A stretch of DNA of 64,000 bases from an uncultured Alphaproteobacteria bacterium (GTDB lineage Bacteria; Pseudomonadota; Alphaproteobacteria; UBA11222). The stretch covers positions 3,408 to 67,407 of the forward strand of contig CAMTWQ010000047.1 of NCBI GenBank assembly GCA_947085465.1, given 5' to 3'. Both the position numbers and the translations under genes were made by a program. This document shows positions 5,850-58,527 of this stretch, one piece after another (position 1 is the first letter of the stretch; each line of letters starts with the position of its first letter). The notes beneath the pieces are model-generated. The model worked only from the letters and a program-made list of their open reading frames with translations. It made no database searches and was not told the origin of the DNA.

Positions 5850-5925
5850 TGCTGCGGTAGCTCAGTGGTAGAGCACCCCCTTGGTAAGGGGGAGGCCGAG
5901 AGTTCAATCCTCTCCCGCAGCACCA
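5850..5925 (+). tRNA. tRNA-Thr (anticodon GGU)
   Basis: Cloverleaf read by hand: acceptor GCUGCGG/CCGCAGC, D-arm GCUC-AGUGGUA-GAGC, anticodon stem CCCCC/GGGGG with loop UUGGUAA, T-arm GAGAG-UUCAAUC-CUCUC, encoded CCA. Confidence 0.88.
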
Positions 5926-5968: not shown

Positions 5969-6045
5969 TGGTACCACCGCCTGGGGTCGAACCAGGGACC
6001 TCTTGATCCACAATCAAGCGCTCTAACCAGCTGAGCTACGGCGGC
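5969..6045 (-). tRNA. tRNA-His (anticodon GUG), alphaproteobacterial type lacking G-1, with G1·U72 and A73
   Basis: Reverse complement folds as acceptor GCCGCCG/CGGUGGU (two G·U pairs), D-arm GCUC-AGCUGGUUA-GAGC, anticodon stem CUUGA/UCAAG with loop UUGUGGA, T-arm CCUGG-UUCGACC-CCAGG, discriminator A, CCA. The -1 position is T, not G. Confidence 0.82.
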
Positions 6046-10426: not shown

Positions 10427-11349
10427 TGGCGGATAACGCCAGTGGCAATGGCGGTGCGAATTGGGCCACGCGGATTCTGCGGGCTGGCAAGAACCGCGGG
10501 CCGGGCAAACTGCTGTCACGTTTCCGCCCGCGCCAGGAAAGTCTTCGCGAAACCATCGAGGATGCGATTGAGGAACATCTGGCCCATACGCCGGATTTCA
10601 CTCCCCTTGAGCGGTTGATGCTGGAAAATATAATGAGCGTTGGCCGTTTGCGGGTTGACGATGTCATGGTGCCCCGCGCCGATATCGTGGCGGTCGAGCT
10701 TGGCATTTCCCTGTCTGATCTTGTGAAGGTGTTTAATGAGGCGTCTCACTCGCGCCTGCCCATCTATCGCGAAACGCTGGATGAACCAACCGGCATGGTG
10801 CACATCAAGGATCTGATGCGCCGGTGGTTTGATGCGGATGCGCAGTCGCGCGCTGGCTTTTCGGCAGGCGCCATCCGCCGTGACGTTTTGTTCGTGCCCC
10901 CGTCGATGCGCGTGGTTGATCTTCTGCTAAAAATGCGGGTCACTCGCATTCACATGGCGTTGGTCATTGATGAATATGGCGGCACCGACGGGCTGGTCAC
11001 CATCGAGGATCTGGTTGAGGAAGTGGTGGGTGAAATTCGTGATGAACATGACGCCGAGGGGCCGCGCCTGGCGCCGCGCGCCGATGGCGGCTATGACGCG
11101 GATGCGCGTGTTGAGGTGAGCGAACTTGAAAAACTTACCGGCCTCGCATTGGTGCCGGATGATTTGATAGAATACGCCGACACGCTGGGCGGCCTGGTGT
11201 CGGCGCTGCTAGGCCGCGTGCCGCAGCGCGGTGAGTTGATAGCGCATCCCGCCGGTCTTGAATTCGAGGTGGTTGAGGCGGATGCGCGCAGCGTCAAGCG
11301 TCTGCGGGTGCGCCGGCGTGCTGCTTCCGCAATGAAGGCCGCAGTGTGA
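10426..11349 (+). CDS. corC: CBS-domain CorC/HlyC-family (TlyC-like) protein
   Basis: Pair of CBS domains plus a C-terminal CorC_HlyC-like region. ATG at 10426 overlaps the ybeY stop as TGATG. Conserved ybeX position. Confidence 0.8.
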
Positions 11350-12956
11350 AGCAAGCGGTAGCGGTTATGCGCGGGCCGTTTGCAGGGGCAGCCGCGTGGC
11401 TTGGTTCAGGCGGGCGCGGGCGGCGTTTTTCCAGTGCTTTCCTGACTGGGGCGTGCGCAAGCCTGGCGCTGGCGCCGGTTCATTTTCTTCCCATTTTGCT
11501 GATCTGTTTCACTGTGCCGGTTTGGCTGCTTGATTATGCGGAAAACTGGCGCGCTGCTGCTGTTATTGGCTGGTGGTTCGGGTTTGGTTTTTTTCTTAGC
11601 GGATTATATTGGGTTGGTATTGCTCTGCTGGTCGATGCGGAAAATTTTGCGCATTTCTTACCCGTTGCCGTCTTGGTGCTGCCGGGTGGTCTGGCGCTGT
11701 TTAGCGCCGGCGCTTTTGCTTTGGCGAAATTGTTCTGGCGTGTGGATGCATCCTGGCGATTGCTGGCGTTTGCGCTGGCCTGGTCGGTGTTTGAGTGGTT
11801 GCGCGGGCATCTGTTTACCGGCTTTCCATGGAATTTGATTGGCTATGCATGGAGCGCTGGGGACGGCTGGATGCTCAGTGTACTGCAATCTGCCTCGGTG
11901 ATTGGCGTTTATGGATTGGGCTTGCTCACTGTGCCGTTAGCAGCCCTGCCTGCCCTGTTGGCCAATGGTGATTGGAGAGGCAGGCAATTTATCATCGCGG
12001 CGCTATTGGGCGGCCTGGCGCTGTCCGCGTCATGGTCCTATGGCGCTGTGCGCTTGTCGCGCCCGGCAGGAGAAGAAATAGCAGGCGCTTATCTGCGCAT
12101 CGTGCAGCCGAACATTGCGCAAACCGCCAAATGGAATCCGGAACAGCAGGCCGCCATCTTCCGGCAATTACTGCGGCTTTCAGGCGCGCCCGCGAGCCAG
12201 CCCATCACCCATGTCATCTGGCCAGAATCGGCGATCCCGTTCTTTGTGGAGAAATCAGAGGCCGCACGCGCCATGATGGCGGAACTGGTTGTCCCCACAG
12301 GCGCAGTAATCACCGGCGCGCTGCGTCAGGCTGATCCAAACAACAGTGATGCCGGGATTTATAATAGTGTCCTGGTCATTGACGGAGATGGCCGGATAGT
12401 TACCCATTATGATAAATCTCACCTGGTGCCGTTTGGTGAATATCTTCCGTTCCCCAGGCTTCTTGCCGCCATAGGTCTGAAAAAACTAACCGTTGATCTT
12501 GGCGCATTCAGCGATGGTGCTGGAATACAAACGCTTATGGCGCCAGGCATGCCAAAGTTCAGCGCACTAATCTGTTATGAGGCGATTTTCCCTAGCCATG
12601 TTGCCGATGATGCAGACCGCCCGCAATGGCTGCTAAACGTCACCAACGACGCCTGGTTTGGTGACACCAGCGGCCCTGCGCAACATCTTGCTCAGGCAAG
12701 GGTGCGCGCCATTGAAGAGGGCCTGCCATTGCTGCGTGCTGCGAATACGGGAATTTCCGCGGTCATTGATGCGCATGGGCGAATTCGGGCAGCTTTGCCA
12801 TTAAACCAGGAAGGGGTGATCGAGACCGGTTTACCTCCAGCCCTGCCGCCAACCATTTATGCGCGCCTGGGGGATCAAATCTATTTTGGACTTTTACTAC
12901 TTATAGGTGTATTTTTCTCTATTGCTGGCTGGTTACAGCGGCGCTTTAACGCTTAA
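11346..12956 (+). CDS. lnt: apolipoprotein N-acyltransferase
   Basis: 536 aa. N-terminal polytopic membrane region followed by a C-N hydrolase domain (VIWPESAIPFF...LICYEAIFP). GTG start overlaps the corC stop. Confidence 0.88.
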   Translation: MKQAVAVMRGPFAGAAAWLGSGGRGRRFSSAFLTGACASLALAPVHFLPILLICFTVPVWLLDYAENWRAAAVIGWWFGFGFFLSGLYWVGIALLVDAENFAHFLPVAVLVLPGGLALFSAGAFALAKLFWRVDASWRLLAFALAWSVFEWLRGHLFTGFPWNLIGYAWSAGDGWMLSVLQSASVIGVYGLGLLTVPLAALPALLANGDWRGRQFIIAALLGGLALSASWSYGAVRLSRPAGEEIAGAYLRIVQPNIAQTAKWNPEQQAAIFRQLLRLSGAPASQPITHVIWPESAIPFFVEKSEAARAMMAELVVPTGAVITGALRQADPNNSDAGIYNSVLVIDGDGRIVTHYDKSHLVPFGEYLPFPRLLAAIGLKKLTVDLGAFSDGAGIQTLMAPGMPKFSALICYEAIFPSHVADDADRPQWLLNVTNDAWFGDTSGPAQHLAQARVRAIEEGLPLLRAANTGISAVIDAHGRIRAALPLNQEGVIETGLPPALPPTIYARLGDQIYFGLLLLIGVFFSIAGWLQRRFNA

Positions 12957-13062
12957 AGAAAGTGACAGAGCGCAACTGATCTTTGCACGCGGCCGCATGC
13001 ACCCTCTGCATGAAATAAATATCAACATATTTTCAGTATTTCAGACTAAACAGGATGACGCC

Positions 13063-13506
13063 ATGATCAAAAACGCCCCCGAACCAGTAGATGTGCATGT
13101 GGGCAGCCGCGTCCGCCTGCGGCGGATGCTGATTGGCATGAGCCAGGAAAAACTGGGAAACGCGCTAAATCTTACCTTTCAGCAAGTGCAGAAATATGAA
13201 AAGGGCGCTAACCGCATTGGCGCCAGCCGCCTGCACCGTATCTCACAGTTACTGGGCGTTTCCGTACAGTTTTTTTTCGACGATCTGCCCGCCGCTTATA
13301 CAGAGCAAATGAGCGGCTTCGCTGAAAACCAAGCCCAGCCTCTGCTGATGAATTTCGTCCACACACCAGAAGGTGTGCATCTCAATCGTGCATTTTCTGA
13401 CATCAAGAACGCCAACGTGCGAAAACGGCTGGTCGATCTGGTCAAGGCGATAGCTGCGTCGGAAGCTGGTTCTGGGACAAGTCCAGATACGAACGGCGAT
13501 CAATAA
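13063..13506 (+). CDS. XRE-family helix-turn-helix transcriptional regulator
   Basis: HTH region VGSRVRLRRMLIGMSQEKLGNALNLTFQQVQKYEKGANRIGASRL. Internal ATG start at 13063 (MIKNAPEP); the upstream extension lacks coding character. Confidence 0.7.
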   Translation: MIKNAPEPVDVHVGSRVRLRRMLIGMSQEKLGNALNLTFQQVQKYEKGANRIGASRLHRISQLLGVSVQFFFDDLPAAYTEQMSGFAENQAQPLLMNFVHTPEGVHLNRAFSDIKNANVRKRLVDLVKAIAASEAGSGTSPDTNGDQ

Positions 13507-18456: not shown

Positions 18457-21171
18457 ATGAGCGAGTCCAAGGATGCCGATGATATGAAGCTTGGCGCGGC
18501 AAAGCGTCCGCTAGGCCTGAAAAAAACCGCTGGCGCTGGTCAGGTGCGGCAAAGCTTTTCGCATGGGCGCTCCAAAACTGTTGTCGTCGAGCTCAAGGTC
18601 AAACGCAAGCTGCCGCTTGCAACGCCTGCCAGCGCGCCAATAGCCGCAGCGCCCAAGGCTGAAATTAAGGCGCCAGCAACGGCTGCCACCCCCGCGATAA
18701 CGGCGCCAATTATTGCAACGCCCGCCGCCCCGCCAGTGACAGTTGTGCCTGAGGTTGTTGCAGAGCAGCCCGTAAAAAAGGCCGCTGCCGCAGTTGTTAA
18801 AATTGCGCCCCGGCCAAACGCCCAGCCTGCTCCTATTACGGAAACCACGGAAAGAAAAGCGCGGCCACGTGTTGAAAAAGGCCGTCAGGTGCTGCGCACA
18901 CTGACCGTGGAAGAACATGCGGCGCGCGAAAAGGCGCTCACCGAAGCGCGGGCCATGGCGCTTGAGCAAGCCCGCAAGTCAGAAATTGAAGCACGCAGGC
19001 TAGCGGAGATTGAAGCGCTGAAGCCGCCCGCGCCAGAAGTTGAAACAGAAGAAACGCCATCTGTAAGCAAGCCTATCGAACCTGACCTGGGCATTATTGT
19101 GCTGAGCGAGGAAGAGCTTGCCGAACGCGCGCGCGCAGCCGAACGGCGCAAAAAAGAAACCCCCAAAATAGAGGTCGTCGAGGAGGAAGAGGAAGCGGAC
19201 GACGATGTCAAAGGCGCGCGCGCCAAACGCAAACTTAGCGTTGCAAAAGCCCCGCCACGCGCCCGCGATGAGCCGCGCCGGCGCGCCGGCCGGCTGACCA
19301 TCCAGGTGGCGCTTGACGATGATCTTGGCGAACGGCAACGCTCGCTCGCATCGATCCGCCGCGCCCGCGAACGCGAACGTTATGCCGCCAAGGCTGGTTC
19401 GCGCGGCGCCATGATTGTGCGCGAAGTCATCATCCCCGAAGCGATTACCGTTACCGATCTCGCCAATCGCATGGCCGTTCGCGTTAATGAAGTTATCCGC
19501 ATTCTGCGCGCCATGGATGAACCCGCACTGCCAGAAACCATGCTGGACCCTGCGACTGCGCAGATTGTTGTTGAGGAATTGGGCCACACCGCCAAGCTGG
19601 TGGCCGAATCCGACGTTGAGATTGGCCTCGATTTCGGCGCCGACGCATCGCATGAATTGCAACCGCGCCCGCCTGTGGTCACCGTGATGGGCCATGTGGA
19701 TCATGGCAAAACTTCACTGCTTGACGCATTGCGCAAAACCGATGTGGTCGCCGGCGAAAAGGGCGGCATCACACAGCATATCGGCGCCTATCAGGTGGAA
19801 ACCGCCAGCGGGCAAAAAATAACATTCATCGATACGCCTGGCCACGAAGCGTTTACCGCGATGCGCGCGCGCGGCGCTGGCGTTACCGATATTGTAGTGC
19901 TGGTGGTGGCGGCCGATGACGGCGTAAAACCGCAGACAGTGGAGGCCATCCATCACGCCAAAGCGGCTGGCGCGCCGGTCATTGTGGCGATTAACAAAAT
20001 GGACAAACCGCAAGCCGACCCAACCCGGGTGCGCCAGGAATTGCTGCAACATGAAATATTTGTCGAAGAAATGGGCGGTGATGTGCTGACAGTCGAAGTG
20101 TCAGCGGTCAAGGGCACAAATCTCGATAAACTGATTGACGCTATTTTGCTGCAGGCGGAATTGATGGATTTGCGCGCCAATCCAAACCGGCCAGCCAATG
20201 GCATCGTCATCGAAGCCAGGCTGGACAAGGGCCGCGGCCCAGTGGCCACCATGCTGATCAAGGGCGGCACGTTAAGGCGCGGCGATATCGTCGTCGCGGG
20301 CGCGGAATCCGGCCGTGTGCGGGCGCTTACCGATGAACGCGGCGGCAGCCTGAATGAAGCGGGCCCCTCAACGCCTGTCGAGGTTTTGGGTCTGCAATCA
20401 GTGCCACAGGCGGGCGAAGATGTGATCGTTGTCAGCAGCGAAGCGCGGGCGCGCGAGGTAAGCGAATTCCGTCAGCGCAGACAAACCGCAGAGCGCACAA
20501 CATCCGCACCCGCCGGTTCGCTCGAAGACATGTTCGCGCAGTTGAAACGCAACGAAATCAAAGAGCTGCCTGTTGTTCTGAAGGCCGACGTGCAGGGTTC
20601 GCTTGAGGCGATCCAGGCGTCGCTCGAAAAACTCTCAACCAGCGAGGTGCGCGTGCGCATTCTGCTTGGCGGCGTTGGCGCGATTACTGAATCGGATGTG
20701 AGTCTGGCGCAAGCGTCGCGCGCTCCGGTGTTTGGATTTAATGTGCGCGCCAATCCGCAGGCTAAGCTTGAGGCGGAAAAGGCGCGAGTCGAAATTCGTT
20801 ATTACGGCATTATTTACGATCTGATCGACGATATTAAACGCACCATGTCGGGAATGCTGGCGCCTGAGCGGCGCGAAACCATGCTTGGCAACGCACGGGT
20901 GCTTGAGGTGTTCAAAGTGTCGAAGATGGGCAAGGCGGCGGGCGGCCTGGTCACCGACGGCGTTGTGCGGCGCGGCGCGGGCGTGCGCGTCATTCGCGAC
21001 AATGTGGTGCTGCATGACGGGTCGCTGTCCAGCCTTCGCCGCTTCAAGGACGAAGTGCGCGAAGTTCAGGCCGGCACGGAATGCGGCATGGCGTTTGAGA
21101 ATTTCCAGGACCTTCGCGTTGGCGATATCATCGAATGCTTCGAGGTTGAGCATATCGCGCGTACGCTGTAG
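18457..21171 (+). CDS. infB: translation initiation factor IF-2
   Basis: 904 aa. G-domain [17 protein letters not shown] ... DTPGHEAF ... NKMD; N-terminal Ala/Pro/Glu-rich region. Confidence 0.95.
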
Positions 21172-21198
21172 CAGGGTGCGTTTAATTGCAGAATTGAA

Positions 21199-21468
21199 CT
21201 AACCGAAAAGATCAGAATGCGATCCCGTCCGGTATAGGCGGATTTCAGTTTCGGTCACATCGTAAATCAAAAGCCAATCAGACTCGATATGGCATTCCCA
21301 AAGCCCCGCATAGTTGCCAGAAAGCTTGTGCGGCCTGCACCGCAGGGGTAACGGCTTGTCTTCTAAAAGAAGGTCAAGAATAGTCTGAAATTTCTTCATC
21401 GCCTTGTCGCGTTTCGCTGCGCGCTTAAAATCCCTGCGAAATGAGTTGGCGGCGAAGGCTGTTTTCAC
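21199..21468 (-). CDS. yafQ: type II toxin YafQ (RelE/ParE superfamily mRNA interferase)
   Basis: HIESDWLLIYDVTETEIRLYRTGSHSDLFG closely parallels the E. coli YafQ C-terminus. Overlaps the dinJ stop by 4 nt. Confidence 0.8.
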   Translation of the reverse strand: MKTAFAANSFRRDFKRAAKRDKAMKKFQTILDLLLEDKPLPLRCRPHKLSGNYAGLWECHIESDWLLIYDVTETEIRLYRTGSHSDLFG

Positions 21469-21719
21469 TTCAGCAAATCGTCCATCAGATGCTGCGATGT
21501 CTTATATCGCTTGCCTTTGCCTTCCTTGACCTCTTTAATCGCGCGGCGCGTGGCCTTGTTGGGCATGCGCACATCAAACGGTAGGCCCTTGTTCAAAACC
21601 ACCTGACTTAAAAAAATCGATATCGCATCCGTGGTATTCATGCCGAGAGTGCGAAATATTTTTTCGGCGGTGGCCTTTAGTGCCGGTTCAACGCGGACGT
21701 TGACGACTTTTGTCTTCAT
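21465..21719 (-). CDS. dinJ: antitoxin DinJ (RelB/DinJ family)
   Basis: MKTKVVNVRVEPALKATAEKIFRTLGMNTTDAISIFLSQVVLNKGLPFDVRMPN resembles DinJ. Start at the internal ATG at 21719. Confidence 0.8.
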   Translation of the reverse strand: MKTKVVNVRVEPALKATAEKIFRTLGMNTTDAISIFLSQVVLNKGLPFDVRMPNKATRRAIKEVKEGKGKRYKTSQHLMDDLLK

Positions 21720-21911
21720 GGGGATTGGTTCTTTCGGCTTCACGTATTACGATAGATACACATTGTAACACAACAGAAAGCTAAAATCAACCGGTTGCTT
21801 AAGGGCCACTTGCCAATATCGCCCCAGACGGCGTATCTAACCGCCACGCTCTGGTTGCCAGGCGAAGCAAGTTCCGCCGTAACCCAAATCAACATCTGGT
21901 AGCATTGCATT

Positions 21912-22355
21912 ATGCCGACATCACGTAAATCAGGCCCGTCCGGTCGCGGCGCGCATCGCGGGCCTTCGCAACGTCAATTGCGGGTGGGCGAGGTGATCCG
22001 CCATTCACTGAGCGATATTCTGGCGCGTGGCGATGTGCAGGATCCGGGGCTCACCGGCCGCTCAATCACCATCACCGAGGCGCAAATCACAGGCGATCTC
22101 AAACATGGCGTAATTTACGTGACGCCACTGGCGACGAGTGCGGCGGAGTCAAAATTAGTGGTCGAAGCGCTTAACCGGTGTGCGCCGTATTTGCGCGGCC
22201 AACTCAGCCATATGATCGAAATTCGCCACACACCGATGCTGAAATTTGTTCTCGACGAGCGTTTCGATGCGGCCGATGCGCTGGACAGACTGTTGCGCGA
22301 TCCGCGCGTGGCCCAGGATTTGGCGCCAACCAAACAACGCGACGGGAATGTGTAA
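21912..22355 (+). CDS. rbfA: ribosome-binding factor A
   Basis: RVGEVIRHSLSDILARGDVQDPGL ... VTPLATSAAESKLVVEALN. Its stop overlaps the truB start as TAATG. Confidence 0.9.
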   Translation: MPTSRKSGPSGRGAHRGPSQRQLRVGEVIRHSLSDILARGDVQDPGLTGRSITITEAQITGDLKHGVIYVTPLATSAAESKLVVEALNRCAPYLRGQLSHMIEIRHTPMLKFVLDERFDAADALDRLLRDPRVAQDLAPTKQRDGNV

Positions 22356-23302
22356 TGGCCCGGCGCGGTAAATCGGGCAAGCCCATCAATGGCTGGGTCT
22401 GTATCGATAAGCCTGTAGGCGTTACGTCAACCCAGGTCGTGGGCAAGGTCAGATACGCCTTCGATGCGCAAAAAGCCGGCCATGCGGGAACCCTTGATCC
22501 GCTGGCCAGCGGCATCCTGGCGATAGCGCTGGGCGAGGCGACCAAGACCATTCCCTATGCGGTCGATTCGAAGAAAACCTATCGATTTGCAGTTCGCTGG
22601 GGCGAGCAGCGCAATACCGATGATGATGAGGGCGTGGCTATTGCAACCAGCGATGTGCGCCCGGATGCGACCGCCATCCGCGCCGCGCTGCCAGGCTTTA
22701 CCGGCGTCATTCAACAAACGCCGCCGCAATTTTCCGCCATTAAGCTTAACGGCGCCCGCGCCTATGATCTGGCCCGCCAGGGCGAGACCCTGGTCATTGC
22801 AGCACGCCCGGTAGAAATCATGCAGTTAAGCCTACTGGACGCCTCTGACCCGGATTGCGCCATTTTCGAGATGGTCTGCGGTAAAGGGGCCTATGTGCGC
22901 GCCATCGCCAGGGATTTGGGGCTGCGGCTTGGAAGCTATGGCTTCGCCAGGAATATCCGCCGCCTGAGCGCTGGCCCGTTTAACGAGGCCAACGCGATTT
23001 CACTGGATAAACTGCTGCAACTGGTTCATAACCCGTCACTGTCGGAGCACCTGCTTCCGGTTGAGACCCCGCTGGACGACATCCCGGCGATGGCCATTTC
23101 CGGAGCCGATGCAGCCCGCCTAAGACGCGGACAGTCCATATTGGCCCTAAATCCGCCAATATGCGCGGCCCAAGCCGTCATCTGCGCCAAGTCCGGTGGA
23201 AAGCCCATCGCCCTTGGCCATGTGGAGGCGGGGGAATTCCGGGCAGTACGTATCTTCAACATGCCAATGGGAGTAACAAAAGCCGATGTCGATTTCGCCT
23301 GA
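22355..23302 (+). CDS. truB: tRNA pseudouridine(55) synthase
   Basis: [17 protein letters not shown]...[13 protein letters not shown] motif with the catalytic Asp. Internal ATG start at 22355; the ORF track extension back to 22178 overlaps rbfA in another frame and is rejected. Confidence 0.9.
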
Positions 23303-56420: not shown

Positions 56421-57542
56421 GTGACAGGCTCTAAACCGGATGAAAGCCAGCAGAACGGCGTTACCCCTCAATTCTGGGCGGGGAAGCGGGTGCTGCTGAC
56501 CGGGCATACGGGATTTAAGGGAAGCTGGCTGTCGATCTGGCTCGCCAAAATGGGGGCGGAGATATTTGGCTATGCCCTTGCCCCCGAGCATCCCGAAGAT
56601 ATGTTTGCAGCCCTTGATCTTCCGGCGCTGCTGCCGCAATTGCGTCATCGCATCGGCGATGTGCGCGATCTGGGCGCTTTGACAGAGCTTGTGCGCGAAG
56701 CGCGGCCAGAAATAATCATTCACATGGCGGCGCAGCCATTGGTGCGGCGCTCCTACCGGCTGCCCATAGAGACCTTTGCAGTGAACGCCATGGGCACGGC
56801 GCATGTGCTGGAGGCAGCCCGCACTTTTGACGGTGTCAGCGCCATTGTCATCGTCACCACTGACAAAGTGTATGAAAATCTTGGCCATGACCTGGCCTAT
56901 GGCGAGGGCGACCGGCTGGGCGGGCATGACCCCTACAGCGCCAGCAAGGCGATGGCCGAGATGGTCACCAGCGCCTACCGCCGCTCGTTTTTCAGCACCG
57001 GCGTCCCAGGGGGCCTTCCGGCCACGGCCACGGCGCGCGCCGGCAATGTGATCGGCGGCGGCGACTGGAGCGAGGATAGGCTGATCCCCGACGCCATGCG
57101 CGCCTGGCGCAAAGGCGGGGAATTGATCCTGCGCAATCCCCATGCGAACCGGCCTTGGCAGCATGTGATCGATCCATTGCGCGGTTATCTGATGCTGGCG
57201 CAAGCGCTGGTTAAAGATGGCCCGCGCTATGCCCAGGCATGGAATTTTGGCCCTGAAATGCGCGCCGTTTACGAGGTGCAGGAAGTCATCACCCGCCTGG
57301 CGGACGTCATGCGCGCGCGCGGCCTGGATGCGCAATGGCGCGTTGAGGCGCAACCCGGCCAGCCACACGAAGCCATGCTGCTGCAACTGGATTGCCGCAA
57401 GGCGCGCGAGGAATTGCAGTGGCGCTCAATGCTTGATCTTGATGCAGCCCTTTCACACACCGCCGCGTGGTATCACGCGCAAATCAGCGGCGCCTCTGCG
57501 CAGGCGCTGTGCGAGCTCACGCTCCAGCAAATTGAGAATTAA
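56421..57542 (+). CDS. rfbG: CDP-glucose 4,6-dehydratase-like NAD-dependent epimerase/dehydratase
   Basis: VLLTGHTGFKGSWLSIWL Rossmann/RfbG-type N-terminus, TDKVYEN and YSASK catalytic motifs. Probable GTG start at 56421; the ORF-track TTG at 56391 lies inside the repeat. The stop TAA lies inside the right repeat copy. Confidence 0.8.
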   Translation: MTGSKPDESQQNGVTPQFWAGKRVLLTGHTGFKGSWLSIWLAKMGAEIFGYALAPEHPEDMFAALDLPALLPQLRHRIGDVRDLGALTELVREARPEIIIHMAAQPLVRRSYRLPIETFAVNAMGTAHVLEAARTFDGVSAIVIVTTDKVYENLGHDLAYGEGDRLGGHDPYSASKAMAEMVTSAYRRSFFSTGVPGGLPATATARAGNVIGGGDWSEDRLIPDAMRAWRKGGELILRNPHANRPWQHVIDPLRGYLMLAQALVKDGPRYAQAWNFGPEMRAVYEVQEVITRLADVMRARGLDAQWRVEAQPGQPHEAMLLQLDCRKAREELQWRSMLDLDAALSHTAAWYHAQISGASAQALCELTLQQIEN

Positions 57543-57636
57543 ATAGGGTCAAGAATTAAATAGGGTCAGACTCGATTTAGGATAATGCCAGATATGACAG
57601 CAAGTTAAGAAATTAAATCGAGTCTGACCCTATTTC
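57534..57636. repeat. AT-rich palindromic MITE-like element (right copy, direct repeat of the 56313-56394 core)
   Basis: Same core hairpin and loop as the left copy; the tail is relocated to the 5' side. Confidence 0.7.
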
Positions 57637-57683
57637 TTTCTATGCTTAATCTTTTCCTCGCCGCCCAAAGCAATTTCCTGCAA

Positions 57684-58064
57684 TCACGCGGCTTTCTTGC
57701 CGCGCGTGGGGCGAATGAGAATTTCGGCTGGCAGACCAAGTTCTTCATGCAATCGGCGAATCATGGCGATAGACAGGTTGCGTTTGCGGTTCAGAACCTC
57801 TGTTACGCGCGCGCGCGTACCAATGATAGGCTCCAGATCCTTGCGGGTCAGGCCCAGTTGCTCCATGCGGAATTTGATGGCGTCGATGGGGTCGGGCGGG
57901 TCCATCGGGTAATGTTCCGCCTCATAGACATCGACCAATGTCGCCAATATGTCGAGACGATCTCCCGCCGCAGTTCCGCTTTTTGCGCCCCAAAGCTTCT
58001 TGAGGCTAGTTAATGCCCGTTTATAGTCCGCCTCCGAGCGGATCGGTTTTAGTTCAGCCGTCAT
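57684..58064 (-). CDS. higA: HigA-family antitoxin / XRE-type HTH protein
   Basis: C-terminal HTH (LGLTRKDLEPIIGTRARVTEVLNRKRNLSIAMIRRLHEELGL). Overlaps the upstream toxin gene by 11 nt. Confidence 0.72.
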   Translation of the reverse strand: MTAELKPIRSEADYKRALTSLKKLWGAKSGTAAGDRLDILATLVDVYEAEHYPMDPPDPIDAIKFRMEQLGLTRKDLEPIIGTRARVTEVLNRKRNLSIAMIRRLHEELGLPAEILIRPTRGKKAA

Positions 58065-58377
58065 ATTCCACCTTTGTTACGTCAATCCGGTCATAGGACT
58101 TGTGCGAGCCAATCCATTTTATCCAGACGATGCGTTTCTCAAAATCAACAGCCACCACCAGCCGGTAGGCGTTGCCTTTAATGTTGAATACAATCCGCCC
58201 GGCATTTATAACGCTTGCCGTTGCATAAAGGCGCTTGACCTCGGACATATTCTCCCAGTTCGCTTTTTTCACTTCATCGAACCAGGCATCCAGCGCGGCC
58301 TTGACCGCCGGACGATCTTTATGCCCGGTCAGCGATTTGATAAAATCCTGTAAAGTCCGCCGGGCAATAATCCGCAT
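58054..58377 (-). CDS. higB: HigB-family (RelE/ParE superfamily) toxin
   Basis: RIVFNIKGNAYRLVVAVDFEKRIVWIKWIGSHKSYDRID matches the HigB-toxin fold signature (from memory). The toxin precedes the antitoxin, as in higBA. Start at the ATG at 58377. Confidence 0.72.
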   Translation of the reverse strand: MRIIARRTLQDFIKSLTGHKDRPAVKAALDAWFDEVKKANWENMSEVKRLYATASVINAGRIVFNIKGNAYRLVVAVDFEKRIVWIKWIGSHKSYDRIDVTKVEYDG

Positions 58378-58527
58378 CGGACAAATATAGCTTGCACCCA
58401 TTTTGGGCGCAAGGGAAATAAGGTTCCGCCAGAATGAATTTGCGGGTATTCGCCAGCCCCCTACGTTTGCTGCGCAAGCTTCGGAGGACGCTCAGTTTTG
58501 CAACGGTTAAAGGGGGGGTTAAAGGGT

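What the first reader, a model, noticed from the sequence alone, without database searches (positions are those of the whole stretch)
21199..21719. dinJ-yafQ toxin-antitoxin pair inserted convergently between infB and rbfA of the conserved nusA-infB-rbfA-truB-rpsO-pnp operon
In most bacteria infB is followed directly by rbfA. Here a minus-strand DinJ/YafQ module occupies the 740-bp gap: the YafQ C-terminus HIESDWLLIYD...RTGSHSDLFG is unmistakable, and the two genes overlap by 4 nt. Convergent transcription into infB could affect rbfA-truB-rpsO-pnp expression. The insertion also marks a recent acquisition into a core operon.
Basis: partly seen in the sequence, partly recalled or inferred. Interest (0 to 1): 0.55.

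Follow-up and report, generated by a model that had tools for sequence, protein, structure and literature searches.

The report
DinJ-YafQ toxin-antitoxin cassette between infB and rbfA
An intact DinJ-YafQ toxin-antitoxin gene pair does sit backwards between the translation genes infB and rbfA of an uncultured alphaproteobacterium, but it is an old, dispensable occupant of a spot where relatives carry nothing, the same pair, a different pair, or both, which makes it an ordinary element in an informative place.

Summary
yafQ lies at 21199-21468 (-) and dinJ at 21465-21719 (-). They overlap by GTGA and fill most of the 740-nt gap between infB and rbfA. The toxin matches Pfam YafQ_toxin (1e-31). 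Its model superposes on E. coli YafQ (TM 0.93), and the equivalents of H50, H63, D67, H87 and F91 are all present.

"Recent acquisition" is only partly right. The site is empty (infB stop, 13 nt, rbfA ATG) in four relatives, one of them 97.7% identical to the window. However, orthologous cassettes occupy exactly this site in three other lineages that are about 75-80% identical in DNA. Their synonymous divergence (about 0.5-1.9) is similar to that of rbfA, dN/dS is 0.03-0.10, and GC3 is close to the host's.

Another relative carries an unrelated RHH/ParE-type pair at this site, next to a 23-nt remnant of the yafQ 3' end. A further relative carries both pairs in tandem, separated by a decayed duplicate of the infB 3' end. 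One empty allele is a recombinant mosaic.

The locus is therefore a toxin-antitoxin hotspot whose alleles appear to be exchanged through flank homology. This phenomenon is already described for relA-mazEF-mazG. It is a new member of a known kind and of modest interest.

The parts
18457..21171 (+). infB (IF-2, 904 aa), the upstream core gene. Its stop codon TAG (21169-21171) is the left border of the insertion.
   Evidence: Pfam IF-2, GTP_EFTU and IF2_N. Alignment with empty-site relatives.
21172..21900 (.). The whole inserted block (about 729 nt): spacer, yafQ, dinJ and a 180-nt upstream control region. It is absent from the empty-site alleles.
   Evidence: Alignments A1 and A4 against the empty sites L016, L023, L028 and L029. 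G+C 0.493. No terminal direct or inverted repeats.
21172..21198 (.). 27-nt spacer between the convergent stop codons of infB and yafQ (7 nt in L009, L010 and L034). It contains no terminator.
   Evidence: fold z-scores -0.8 and +0.95.
21199..21468 (-). yafQ: an 89-aa YafQ-family RelE-fold toxin with a GTG start. By homology it is a ribosome-dependent mRNA endonuclease. H47, H60, D64, H84 and F88 correspond to E. coli H50, H63, D67, H87 and F91.
   Evidence: Pfam PF15738 1.2e-31. PDB 4ML2 2e-16. Residue map. Invariant columns in 37 homologs. AF2 pLDDT 93.5. TM 0.93 to 4MMJ. dN/dS 0.035-0.10.
21465..21719 (-). dinJ: an 84-aa RelB/DinJ-family antitoxin. It is upstream of yafQ and overlaps it by GTGA.
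   Evidence: Pfam RelB 7.5e-15. NCBIfam RelB_DinJ 3.6e-22. PDB 9LEW_A 2.7e-10 and 4ML0_A 6e-8. ATG start conserved in relatives. dN/dS 0.03-0.09.
21762..21790 (-). Promoter-like site for dinJ-yafQ: -35 TTGATT (21790-21785), 17 nt, TG-extended -10 TACAAT (21767-21762).
   Evidence: Consensus scan. The hexamers are conserved in L009 and L010 (A5). Function is inferred.
21744..21771 (.). Imperfect inverted repeat GTATTAC-N14-GTAACAC overlapping the -10 box. It is a candidate DinJ operator.
   Evidence: Coordinates. The equivalent 12-nt arms in L009 are 92% complementary. The repeat is degenerate in the window and in L010, so this is inferred.
21809..21839 (+). Candidate outward-facing promoter toward rbfA inside the insert: CTTGCC, 18 nt, TATCTA.
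   Evidence: The block CTTGC..ACGGCGTATC is conserved in the window, L009 and L034 but not in L010 (A6). It was not picked up by the strict sigma-70 scan. Inferred only.
21892..21900 (.). Right end of the insert (ACATCTGGT). It is shared by the occupied alleles, including the ParE-type one, and is absent from the empty alleles.
   Evidence: A4.
21901..22355 (+). The ancestral 11-nt spacer (AGCATTGCATT, also present in empty sites) plus rbfA (21912-22355, 147 aa).
   Evidence: Pfam RBFA 2.3e-24 and NCBIfam RbfA 4e-43. A4.

Best explanation
The block 21172-21900 is a self-contained type II toxin-antitoxin (TA) cassette with no mobility genes. It consists of a promoter and operator, then dinJ, then yafQ.

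By homology it works as follows. DinJ binds and neutralises YafQ, and probably represses the cassette's own promoter through the inverted repeat over the -10 box. When DinJ is lost, free YafQ enters the ribosomal A site and cuts mRNA, which stops translation.

The cassette lies antisense in the infB-rbfA intercistronic spacer of the rimP-nusA-ylxR-infB-rbfA-truB-rpsO-pnp cluster of an uncultured alphaproteobacterium. In this small clade the spacer is a TA hotspot with at least four allelic states: empty, DinJ-YafQ, an unrelated RHH/ParE-type pair, and both pairs in tandem.

The DinJ-YafQ cassette entered the site once, before the sampled lineages diverged, and it has stayed functional. Since then the alleles have been swapped by recombination that uses the conserved infB 3' end and the rbfA 5' region as homology arms. 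The result is that even strains 97.7% identical differ in whether they carry it.

Shown here: family, fold and catalytic residues; shared junctions; empty sites; the yafQ remnant; the tandem allele; the mosaic allele; and purifying selection. Inferred: toxin activity and codon specificity, autoregulation, which strain gained or lost the cassette, and any effect on rbfA expression.
For: Identity and integrity:
- Pfam and NCBIfam matches and solved YafQ and DinJ structures as the best hits.
- AF2 model with pLDDT 93.5 and TM 0.93, rmsd 1.5 A to E. coli YafQ.
- H47, H60, D64 and H84 are invariant and F88 nearly invariant in 37 homologs. They map to the residues shown experimentally to be needed for E. 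coli YafQ toxicity and cleavage (PMC4652777).
- dN/dS is 0.03-0.10 for both genes.

Same cassette, same junctions:
- L009 has YafQ 92%, DinJ 92% and RbfA about 80-82% identity to the window.
- L010 and L011 have 82%, 88% and about 75%.
- L034 has 84% and 88%.
- L022 is identical in DNA over its 1070 nt (window 21453-22522).
- Synonymous divergence of the cassette (0.5-1.9) is comparable with that of rbfA (0.86-0.93).

Empty sites with a 13-nt spacer:
- L029 and L031, which are 96-97.7% identical in DNA to the window's flanks.
- L023 and L024, whose RbfA is 93% identical to that of L009.
- L016, whose RbfA is about 85% identical to that of L010.
- L028.

Replacement: L025-L027 carry a ParE_toxin plus RHH pair that is unrelated in sequence to DinJ-YafQ. 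They retain the 7-nt spacer, 20 of 23 nt of the yafQ 3' end, and the right-end motif.

Tandem allele: L034 reads infB end, remnant, ParE, RHH, a decayed second copy of the last ~48 nt of infB with its stop codon and spacer, intact yafQ, dinJ, rbfA.

Mosaic: the empty junction of L029 is an ~80-nt tract that resembles L028, set inside flanks that resemble the window.

Outgroups: 11 distant loci have 11-123 nt gaps. L035-L039 have no TA pair.

Horizontal movement of the module: YafQ homologs at 74-75% identity sit in unrelated neighbourhoods.

Precedent: TA pairs in intercistronic regions of operons, with loci that accept different TA pairs, are described in PMC7167474, section 16.
Against: - All relatives are short metagenome contigs (1-2.7 kb). 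The host phylogeny therefore rests on rbfA and fragments of infB and truB, which are themselves recombinant (L028 infB is 91.5% identical to the window but its rbfA-truB only 78%).
- With three or four cassette sequences, agreement between the cassette tree and the host tree is weak evidence.
- Synonymous divergence near 1 is saturated, so "as old as the lineages" is approximate.
- Total G+C of the insert remains an outlier. That would also fit a cassette circulating in a separate gene pool.
- The NCBIfam YafQ-specific model TIGR00053 scores 67.4, below its cutoff of 87.25.
- The operator repeat is degenerate in the window (8 of 12, read from the sequence; not detected).
- No expression or activity data exist.
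Confidence: 0.72

Rival explanations
1. The pair arrived recently from an unrelated donor by horizontal transfer into this strain's core operon.
For: A strain 96-97.7% identical in the flanks lacks the insert. Total G+C is 0.49 against 0.58. YafQ homologs at 74-76% identity occur in unrelated contexts, and one is named Bdellovibrionales.
Against: The closest homologs (92%, 84% and 82%) all sit at the same infB-rbfA junctions in diverged relatives. Synonymous divergence between them is about 0.5-1.9. GC3 is close to the host's and follows the host in L010. A yafQ remnant exists in the L025 lineage. A recent re-import from a related TA-bearing lineage by allele exchange is not excluded, but that would not be a new arrival in the clade.
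Confidence: 0.12
2. The same cassette inserted independently and site-specifically into this spacer in each lineage, because the spacer is a target recognised by an unknown integration system.
For: The pattern is patchy: three sister pairs each consist of one occupied and one empty allele. Two different TA families are found at one site. The literature notes that TA insertion is not random (PMC7167474).
Against: No integrase or transposase, terminal repeats or target duplication was found. The occupied alleles share non-coding ends: the 7-nt spacer CAGAYTG is shared by L010, L025 and L034 (L009 has CCGGCGT and the window a 27-nt spacer), and the right-end motif ACATC(T/A)GG is shared by the window, L009 and L025. 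This is expected from one event. The ParE-type allele sits inside remnants of the older insert. The mosaic and tandem alleles show homology-based exchange.
Confidence: 0.08
3. The pair has been domesticated as a regulator of the translation-factor operon. For example, it could supply the rbfA promoter, or couple antisense read-through from infB to toxin expression.
For: No terminator lies between infB and yafQ, and the gap is only 7-27 nt, so the transcripts must overlap. A promoter-like block facing rbfA is conserved in three occupied alleles. The cassette is under strong purifying selection.
Against: The closest relatives do well with an empty site and a 13-nt infB-rbfA junction. An unrelated TA pair can take its place. 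L010 lacks the conserved block. Purifying selection is also what an addictive selfish module would show. The review reaches the same negative conclusion for mazEF and yafNO.
Confidence: 0.07
4. The pair is a decaying, non-functional remnant.
For: Chromosomal TA pairs often decay (PMC7167474). The operator repeat is degenerate in the window. A gene caller truncated yafQ to 72 aa in L034.
Against: Both ORFs are intact in all four lineages. The L034 ORF is full length from the conserved GTG. The catalytic residues are invariant. dN/dS is 0.03-0.10.
Confidence: 0.04

Closest known systems
E. coli DinJ-YafQ type II toxin-antitoxin system (PDB 4ML0, 4Q2U, 4MMJ)
   Same: The gene order is antitoxin then toxin, with overlapping stop and start codons. 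The protein sizes are similar (84 and 89 aa here, 86 and 92 aa in E. coli). The toxin has the same RelE/YafQ fold (TM 0.93, rmsd 1.5 A). The equivalents of H50, H63, D67, H87 and F91 are all conserved. The antitoxin belongs to the RelB/DinJ family.
   Different: Toxin identity to E. coli YafQ is only about 37% (33 of 89). The toxin scores below the cutoff of the narrow NCBIfam YafQ model. The genomic site is different. Codon specificity (AAA-G/A in E. coli), protease dependence and operator binding are untested.
TA pairs inserted in intercistronic regions of core operons: relA-mazEF-mazG, dinB-yafNOP and folA-ccdO157-apaH (review PMC7167474, section 16)
   Same: The cassette has a promoter but no mobility genes. 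It sits between two conserved co-oriented genes. Strains that lack it have an undisturbed operon. The same locus hosts a different TA family in other lineages, as parDE does at relA-mazG in Salmonella.
   Different: Here the cassette is antisense to the operon, whereas mazEF and yafNO are co-oriented and co-transcribed with theirs. The host operon is nusA-infB-rbfA-pnp. Footprints of the exchange survive at this locus: a toxin remnant, a duplicated infB 3' end and a mosaic empty allele.
RelE/ParE-superfamily toxins YoeB, RelE and HigB
   Same: They share the microbial-RNase-like fold and use of the ribosomal A site. Foldseek hits have TM 0.5-0.75, and Pfam gives secondary hits to ParE_toxin and YoeB_toxin.
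   Different: YafQ structures match clearly better than these do (TM 0.90-0.93 against 0.75 or less). The catalytic triad pattern is the YafQ one.

Membership tests
YafQ toxin family (RelE/ParE superfamily) | Sequence match to the family model above the curated threshold | tested here: met
   Pfam PF15738 YafQ_toxin scores 109.3 bits against a cutoff of 30, E=1.2e-31. NCBIfam RelE_StbE TIGR02385 scores 84.3 against 27.9.
YafQ toxin family (RelE/ParE superfamily) | Match to the narrower NCBIfam YafQ subfamily model TIGR00053 above its cutoff | tested here: not met
   The score is 67.4 bits against a cutoff of 87.25. The protein belongs to the broad YafQ family but to a branch distinct from the enterobacterial one.
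YafQ toxin family (RelE/ParE superfamily) | RelE/YafQ microbial-RNase fold | tested here: met
   The AF2 model has pLDDT 93.5 and pTM 0.82. The top Foldseek hits are E. coli YafQ 4MMJ, 4MMG, 4Q2U and 4ML0, with TM 0.90-0.93 and rmsd 1.5-1.8 A.
YafQ toxin family (RelE/ParE superfamily) | Catalytic and positioning residues H50, H63, D67, H87 and F91 (E. coli numbering; PMC4652777) | tested here: met
   They map to H47, H60, D64, H84 and F88. The four catalytic residues are invariant and F88 is at least 90% conserved in 37 homologs.
YafQ toxin family (RelE/ParE superfamily) | Ribosome-dependent cleavage of in-frame AAA codons; growth arrest on expression | not testable with these tools
   This needs expression and in vitro cleavage assays.
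RelB/DinJ antitoxin family | Family model match, and a position directly upstream of the toxin and translationally overlapping it | tested here: met
   Pfam RelB scores 55 bits against 22.4. NCBIfam RelB_DinJ scores 78.4 against 45.65. PDB DinJ 9LEW_A matches at 2.7e-10 and 4ML0_A at 6e-8. The overlap is GTGA.
RelB/DinJ antitoxin family | Autorepression through a palindromic operator in its own promoter | tested here: inconclusive
   A promoter-like site is conserved in three lineages. An inverted repeat with 12-nt arms over the -10 box is found in L009 (92% complementary), but it matches only about 8 of 12 in the window. Binding was not tested.
Transposon, IS, integron cassette or integrative element | Terminal inverted or direct repeats, target-site duplication, attC or att site, or an adjacent transposase or integrase | tested here: not met
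   No meaningful terminal repeats were found and no tandem repeats. The only ORFs with family matches in the insert are dinJ and yafQ. No Rfam match was found.
Intercistronic chromosomal TA islet at a plastic locus (as relA-mazEF-mazG) | Relatives without the TA pair have an undisturbed adjacent gene pair, and the locus can host other TA families | tested here: met
   Empty 13-nt junctions occur in L016, L023, L028, L029 and L031. An RHH/ParE pair occurs in L025-L027 and a tandem arrangement in L034.
Known anti-phage defence systems (PADLOC) | Match to a defence-system protein model | tested here: not met
   No PADLOC model matched either pair at E<=1e-3.

The most novel reading that the evidence does not exclude
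The infB-rbfA spacer of this groundwater-type alphaproteobacterial clade is a long-lived TA exchange site. Cassettes that carry only a promoter, and have no mobility genes, would be gained, replaced and lost there by recombination anchored in the flanking core genes. Three footprints would record this: the duplicated, decaying infB 3' end in L034, the yafQ stump beside the ParE-type pair, and the 80-nt mosaic empty allele. The cassette would also bring its own outward promoter, so that rbfA-truB-rpsO-pnp stays expressed. If this is right, the locus gives a concrete, testable model of how chromosomal TA pairs integrate. A 2020 review calls that step unelucidated (PMC7167474).
Probability: 0.3. 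Interest if true: 0.55.

Novelty: new member of a known kind. Interest (0 to 1): 0.3.

Why it matters
The toxin-antitoxin pair itself is a routine DinJ-YafQ family member. Its value lies in the locus. A single 13-nt intercistronic junction in a core translation operon shows four allelic states across a handful of related uncultured lineages, and sequence scars record how one state was converted into another. That makes it a compact natural system for asking how TA cassettes without mobility genes spread and persist, and whether an antisense insertion into the nusA-infB-rbfA-pnp operon is neutral. It is also a caution for annotation-based inference: a G+C dip and an empty site in a near-identical strain do not by themselves show a recent arrival.

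Tried and rejected
- The longer dinJ ORF from GTG 21743 (92 aa) was rejected, because that start and the extra 8 codons are not conserved in L009 or L010.
- The minus-strand ORF 21740-21910 (56 aa) has no family match and lies in the promoter region, so it was treated as spurious.
- No terminator or structured RNA lies between infB and yafQ or upstream of rbfA. Fold z-scores are -0.8, +0.95 and -0.74. The terminator-like hits inside the coding sequence are weak and at the chance level. Rfam gave no match at E<=1 over 21100-22000.
- The search for terminal repeats or a target duplication found only short chance-level repeats.
- No PADLOC defence model matched.
- The plasmid search found 755 records with YafQ-family toxins, but none is close. 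The best hits are 58-68% identical over the C-terminal half, so no plasmid donor was identified.
- The scans of reference genomes and JGI metagenomes with RbfA returned mostly distant relatives (44-52%). The close ones came from exact-protein look-ups.
- The 148-nt infB-rbfA spacer of L035-L039 was checked for cassette remnants. None was found; it holds a 16-nt tandem repeat and a hairpin.
- The direction of the recent event in the window's own species (gain in the window or loss in L029) could not be resolved, because both readings place a crossover at rbfA codon ~17.
- The literature search for a TA pair between infB and rbfA found nothing specific.
Full report
**Observation**

The region holds two minus-strand ORFs. 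One runs 21199-21468 (89 aa, GTG start). The other runs 21465-21743. They overlap by 4 nt, GTGA on the coding strand.

Pfam confirms the neighbours: rimP, nusA, ylxR and infB upstream, and rbfA, truB, rpsO and pnp downstream.

The downstream ORF is a YafQ-family toxin. Its Pfam YafQ_toxin match has E=1.2e-31, and its NCBIfam RelE/StbE match 6.5e-24. The upstream ORF is a RelB/DinJ antitoxin, with Pfam RelB at 7.5e-15 and NCBIfam RelB_DinJ at 3.6e-22.

This start and the sequence MKTK... are conserved in relatives, whereas the GTG at 21743 is not.

**What the proteins are**

The best solved relatives are E. coli YafQ (4ML2, E=2e-16, full length) and the DinJ proteins of Vibrio cholerae (9LEW_A) and E. 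coli (4ML0_A).

An AlphaFold model built on 37 homologs has pLDDT 93.5. It superposes on E. coli YafQ with TM 0.93 and rmsd 1.5 A, ahead of YoeB, RelE and HigB.

E. coli YafQ residues H50, H63, D67, H87 and F91 are needed for toxicity and mRNA cleavage (PMC4652777). They map to H47, H60, D64, H84 and F88 here. The four catalytic residues are invariant and F88 is nearly invariant across the 37 homologs.

One caveat applies. The narrow NCBIfam YafQ model TIGR00053 scores below its cutoff (67.4 against 87.25), and identity to E. coli YafQ is only 37%. This is a distinct branch of the family.

**Control region**

A promoter-like site lies upstream of dinJ on the minus strand: -35 TTGATT, 17 nt, and a TG-extended -10 TACAAT (21790-21762). 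Both hexamers are conserved in L009 and L010.

An inverted repeat overlaps the -10 box. In L009 it has 12-nt arms that are 92% complementary. In the window it is degenerate (21744-21771). This is the usual layout for autorepression by an RHH antitoxin, but that role is inferred.

No terminator or stable structure separates the convergent infB and yafQ. The gap is 27 nt here and 7 nt in relatives.

**Synteny: the key result**

The organism is an uncultured alphaproteobacterium. Its PNPase is identical to a protein on an 80-kb NCBI contig, and the relatives at 83-88% identity are named only as Alphaproteobacteria or Pseudomonadota MAGs. RbfA relatives of 69% identity or more are few and come only from short metagenome contigs. 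The next best are 54% or less. At the infB-rbfA junction they fall into four classes.

1. *The same DinJ-YafQ cassette at the same junctions.*
   - L022 is identical in DNA over its 1070 nt, window 21453-22522.
   - L009 has YafQ 92%, DinJ 92% and RbfA about 80-82% identity to the window.
   - L010 and L011 have 82%, 88% and about 75%.
   - L034 has 84% and 88%.
2. *Empty sites, reading infB stop, 13 nt, rbfA ATG.*
   - L029 and L031 are 96-97.7% identical in DNA to the window's flanks.
   - L023 and L024 have RbfA 93% identical to that of L009.
   - L016 has RbfA about 85% identical to that of L010.
   - L028 is also empty.
3. *A different pair.* L025-L027 carry a ParE_toxin protein plus a weakly RHH-like 73-aa protein in the same orientation. 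Neither resembles YafQ or DinJ in sequence.
4. *Both pairs in tandem.* This is L034.

Eleven distant alphaproteobacterial loci have infB-rbfA gaps of 11-123 nt. A further outgroup, L035-L039, has a 148-nt spacer with no TA pair and no remnant.

**Age and selection**

The rbfA comparison gives three sister pairs, and each consists of one occupied and one empty allele:

| Occupied | Empty | rbfA dS |
|---|---|---|
| window | L029 | 0.13 |
| L009 | L023 | 0.32 |
| L010 | L016 | 0.40 |

Between the three occupied lineages, rbfA dS is 0.86-0.93. The cassettes themselves are just as diverged. yafQ dS is 1.0-1.15 and dinJ dS is 0.5-1.9. dN/dS is 0.03-0.10.

The occupied alleles share non-coding ends. 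The 7-nt spacer CAGAYTG after the infB stop is shared by L010, L025 and L034, whereas L009 has CCGGCGT and the window a 27-nt spacer. The motif ACATC(T/A)GG, just before the 11-13 nt that the empty sites keep, is shared by the window, L009 and L025.

GC3 of the cassette (0.57-0.62) is close to that of its neighbours (0.63-0.71). It rises in the more G+C-rich L010 to 0.64-0.66, against 0.78 for the host genes. The low total G+C (0.49) therefore mostly reflects amino-acid composition and is not a sign of recent foreign origin.

Together these results indicate one insertion that predates the sampled lineages, followed by maintenance under selection.

**Footprints of exchange**

- *Remnant.* In L025, between the infB stop and the ParE-type toxin's stop, the 7-nt spacer is followed by 23 nt that match the yafQ 3' end at 20 positions (A2). 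The right-end motif is also kept (A4). The ParE-type pair therefore replaced DinJ-YafQ in place.
- *Tandem allele.* L034 reads infB end, short remnant, ParE, RHH, a second and decayed copy of the last ~48 nt of infB with its TAG and spacer, intact yafQ, dinJ, rbfA. The cassette evidently moved together with infB flank sequence.
- *Mosaic allele.* L029 is 95-100% identical to the window in every 40-nt block of the alignment except an ~80-nt tract that runs from the last codons of infB to rbfA codon ~17. In that tract it matches the distant L028 (31/36 and 29/31) and not the window (28/40 and 21/40). An allele swap therefore occurred recently in this species. Its direction cannot be decided from these data: either the window gained the cassette or L029 lost it.

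No transposase, integrase, terminal repeat or target duplication is present.

**Mechanism**

By homology, DinJ neutralises YafQ and probably represses the cassette's promoter. Free YafQ cleaves ribosome-bound mRNA (PMC4652777). The pair persists as an addictive, dispensable module.

In empty strains rbfA follows infB by 13 nt, which fits co-transcription. In occupied strains 740 nt of antisense genes intervene. A block conserved in the window, L009 and L034 resembles a plus-strand promoter about 70 nt upstream of rbfA: CTTGCC at 21809-21814, 18 nt, then TATCTA at 21834-21839. It may keep the downstream genes expressed. This is inference only. L010 lacks the block, and the strict consensus scan did not report it.

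**Comparison with what is known**

The pair is a member of the DinJ-YafQ family, and the situation has precedent. A review (PMC7167474, section 16) describes TA pairs inserted in the intercistronic regions of operons (relA-mazEF-mazG, dinB-yafNOP). It reports undisturbed operons in strains that lack the pairs, loci that accept different TA families, and an integration mechanism that is still unknown.

Three things are new here: the host operon (nusA-infB-rbfA-pnp), the antisense orientation, and the surviving footprints. No paper linking a TA pair to infB-rbfA was found.

**Verdict**

The module and its position are right. "Recent acquisition" is wrong for the clade and undecidable for the strain.
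- It is a new member of a known kind, with modest interest (0.3).
- The most novel reading that the evidence does not exclude is that the locus records how TA cassettes without mobility genes integrate by flank-anchored recombination (probability about 0.3).

Noticed in passing
window 57684-58401 (-): A second type II toxin-antitoxin pair is present. HigB_toxin lies at 58054-58401 (Pfam 5.5e-29). An HTH_3 antitoxin-like gene lies at 57684-58064 and overlaps it by 11 nt. The pair sits beside one of the lowest-G+C spots of the window (57501-57901, about 0.50).
   Followed up: partly
window 12351-13001: This is another low-G+C spot (about 0.49-0.51). It spans the end of an apolipoprotein N-acyltransferase-like gene (11346-12956) and the start of an HTH_3 protein (12907-13506).
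   Followed up: no
L025 143-631 (also L026, L027) and L034 937-1425: An RHH-like 73-aa protein plus an 87-aa ParE_toxin pair occupies the infB-rbfA site in other lineages. The two versions are 81% (toxin) and 91% (antitoxin) identical to each other. The antitoxin has no family match above threshold.
   Followed up: partly
L021 286-1042: A distant organism has a 726-nt infB-rbfA gap that holds two co-directional ORFs of unknown function. One is a 133-aa coiled-coil protein. So the junction is also interrupted outside this clade, but not by a recognisable TA pair.
   Followed up: partly
L035 2541-2688; L039 1517-1775: In an outgroup lineage (RbfA 47%, PNPase 84%) the infB-rbfA spacer contains three or more tandem copies of ATAACCGGCGCATTGG, followed by a G+C-rich hairpin. 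The copy number appears to differ between samples, but L039 has a run of N at that position.
   Followed up: no
L028 1-576 versus 625-1485: The infB 3' end of L028 is 91.5% identical to the window, but its rbfA-truB is only 78% identical. This indicates an older recombination breakpoint at the same junction, independent of any TA pair.
   Followed up: partly
window 5851-5922 (+) and 5972-6045 (-): Two divergently oriented tRNA genes are the only Rfam gathering-threshold matches in the 64-kb window.
   Followed up: no
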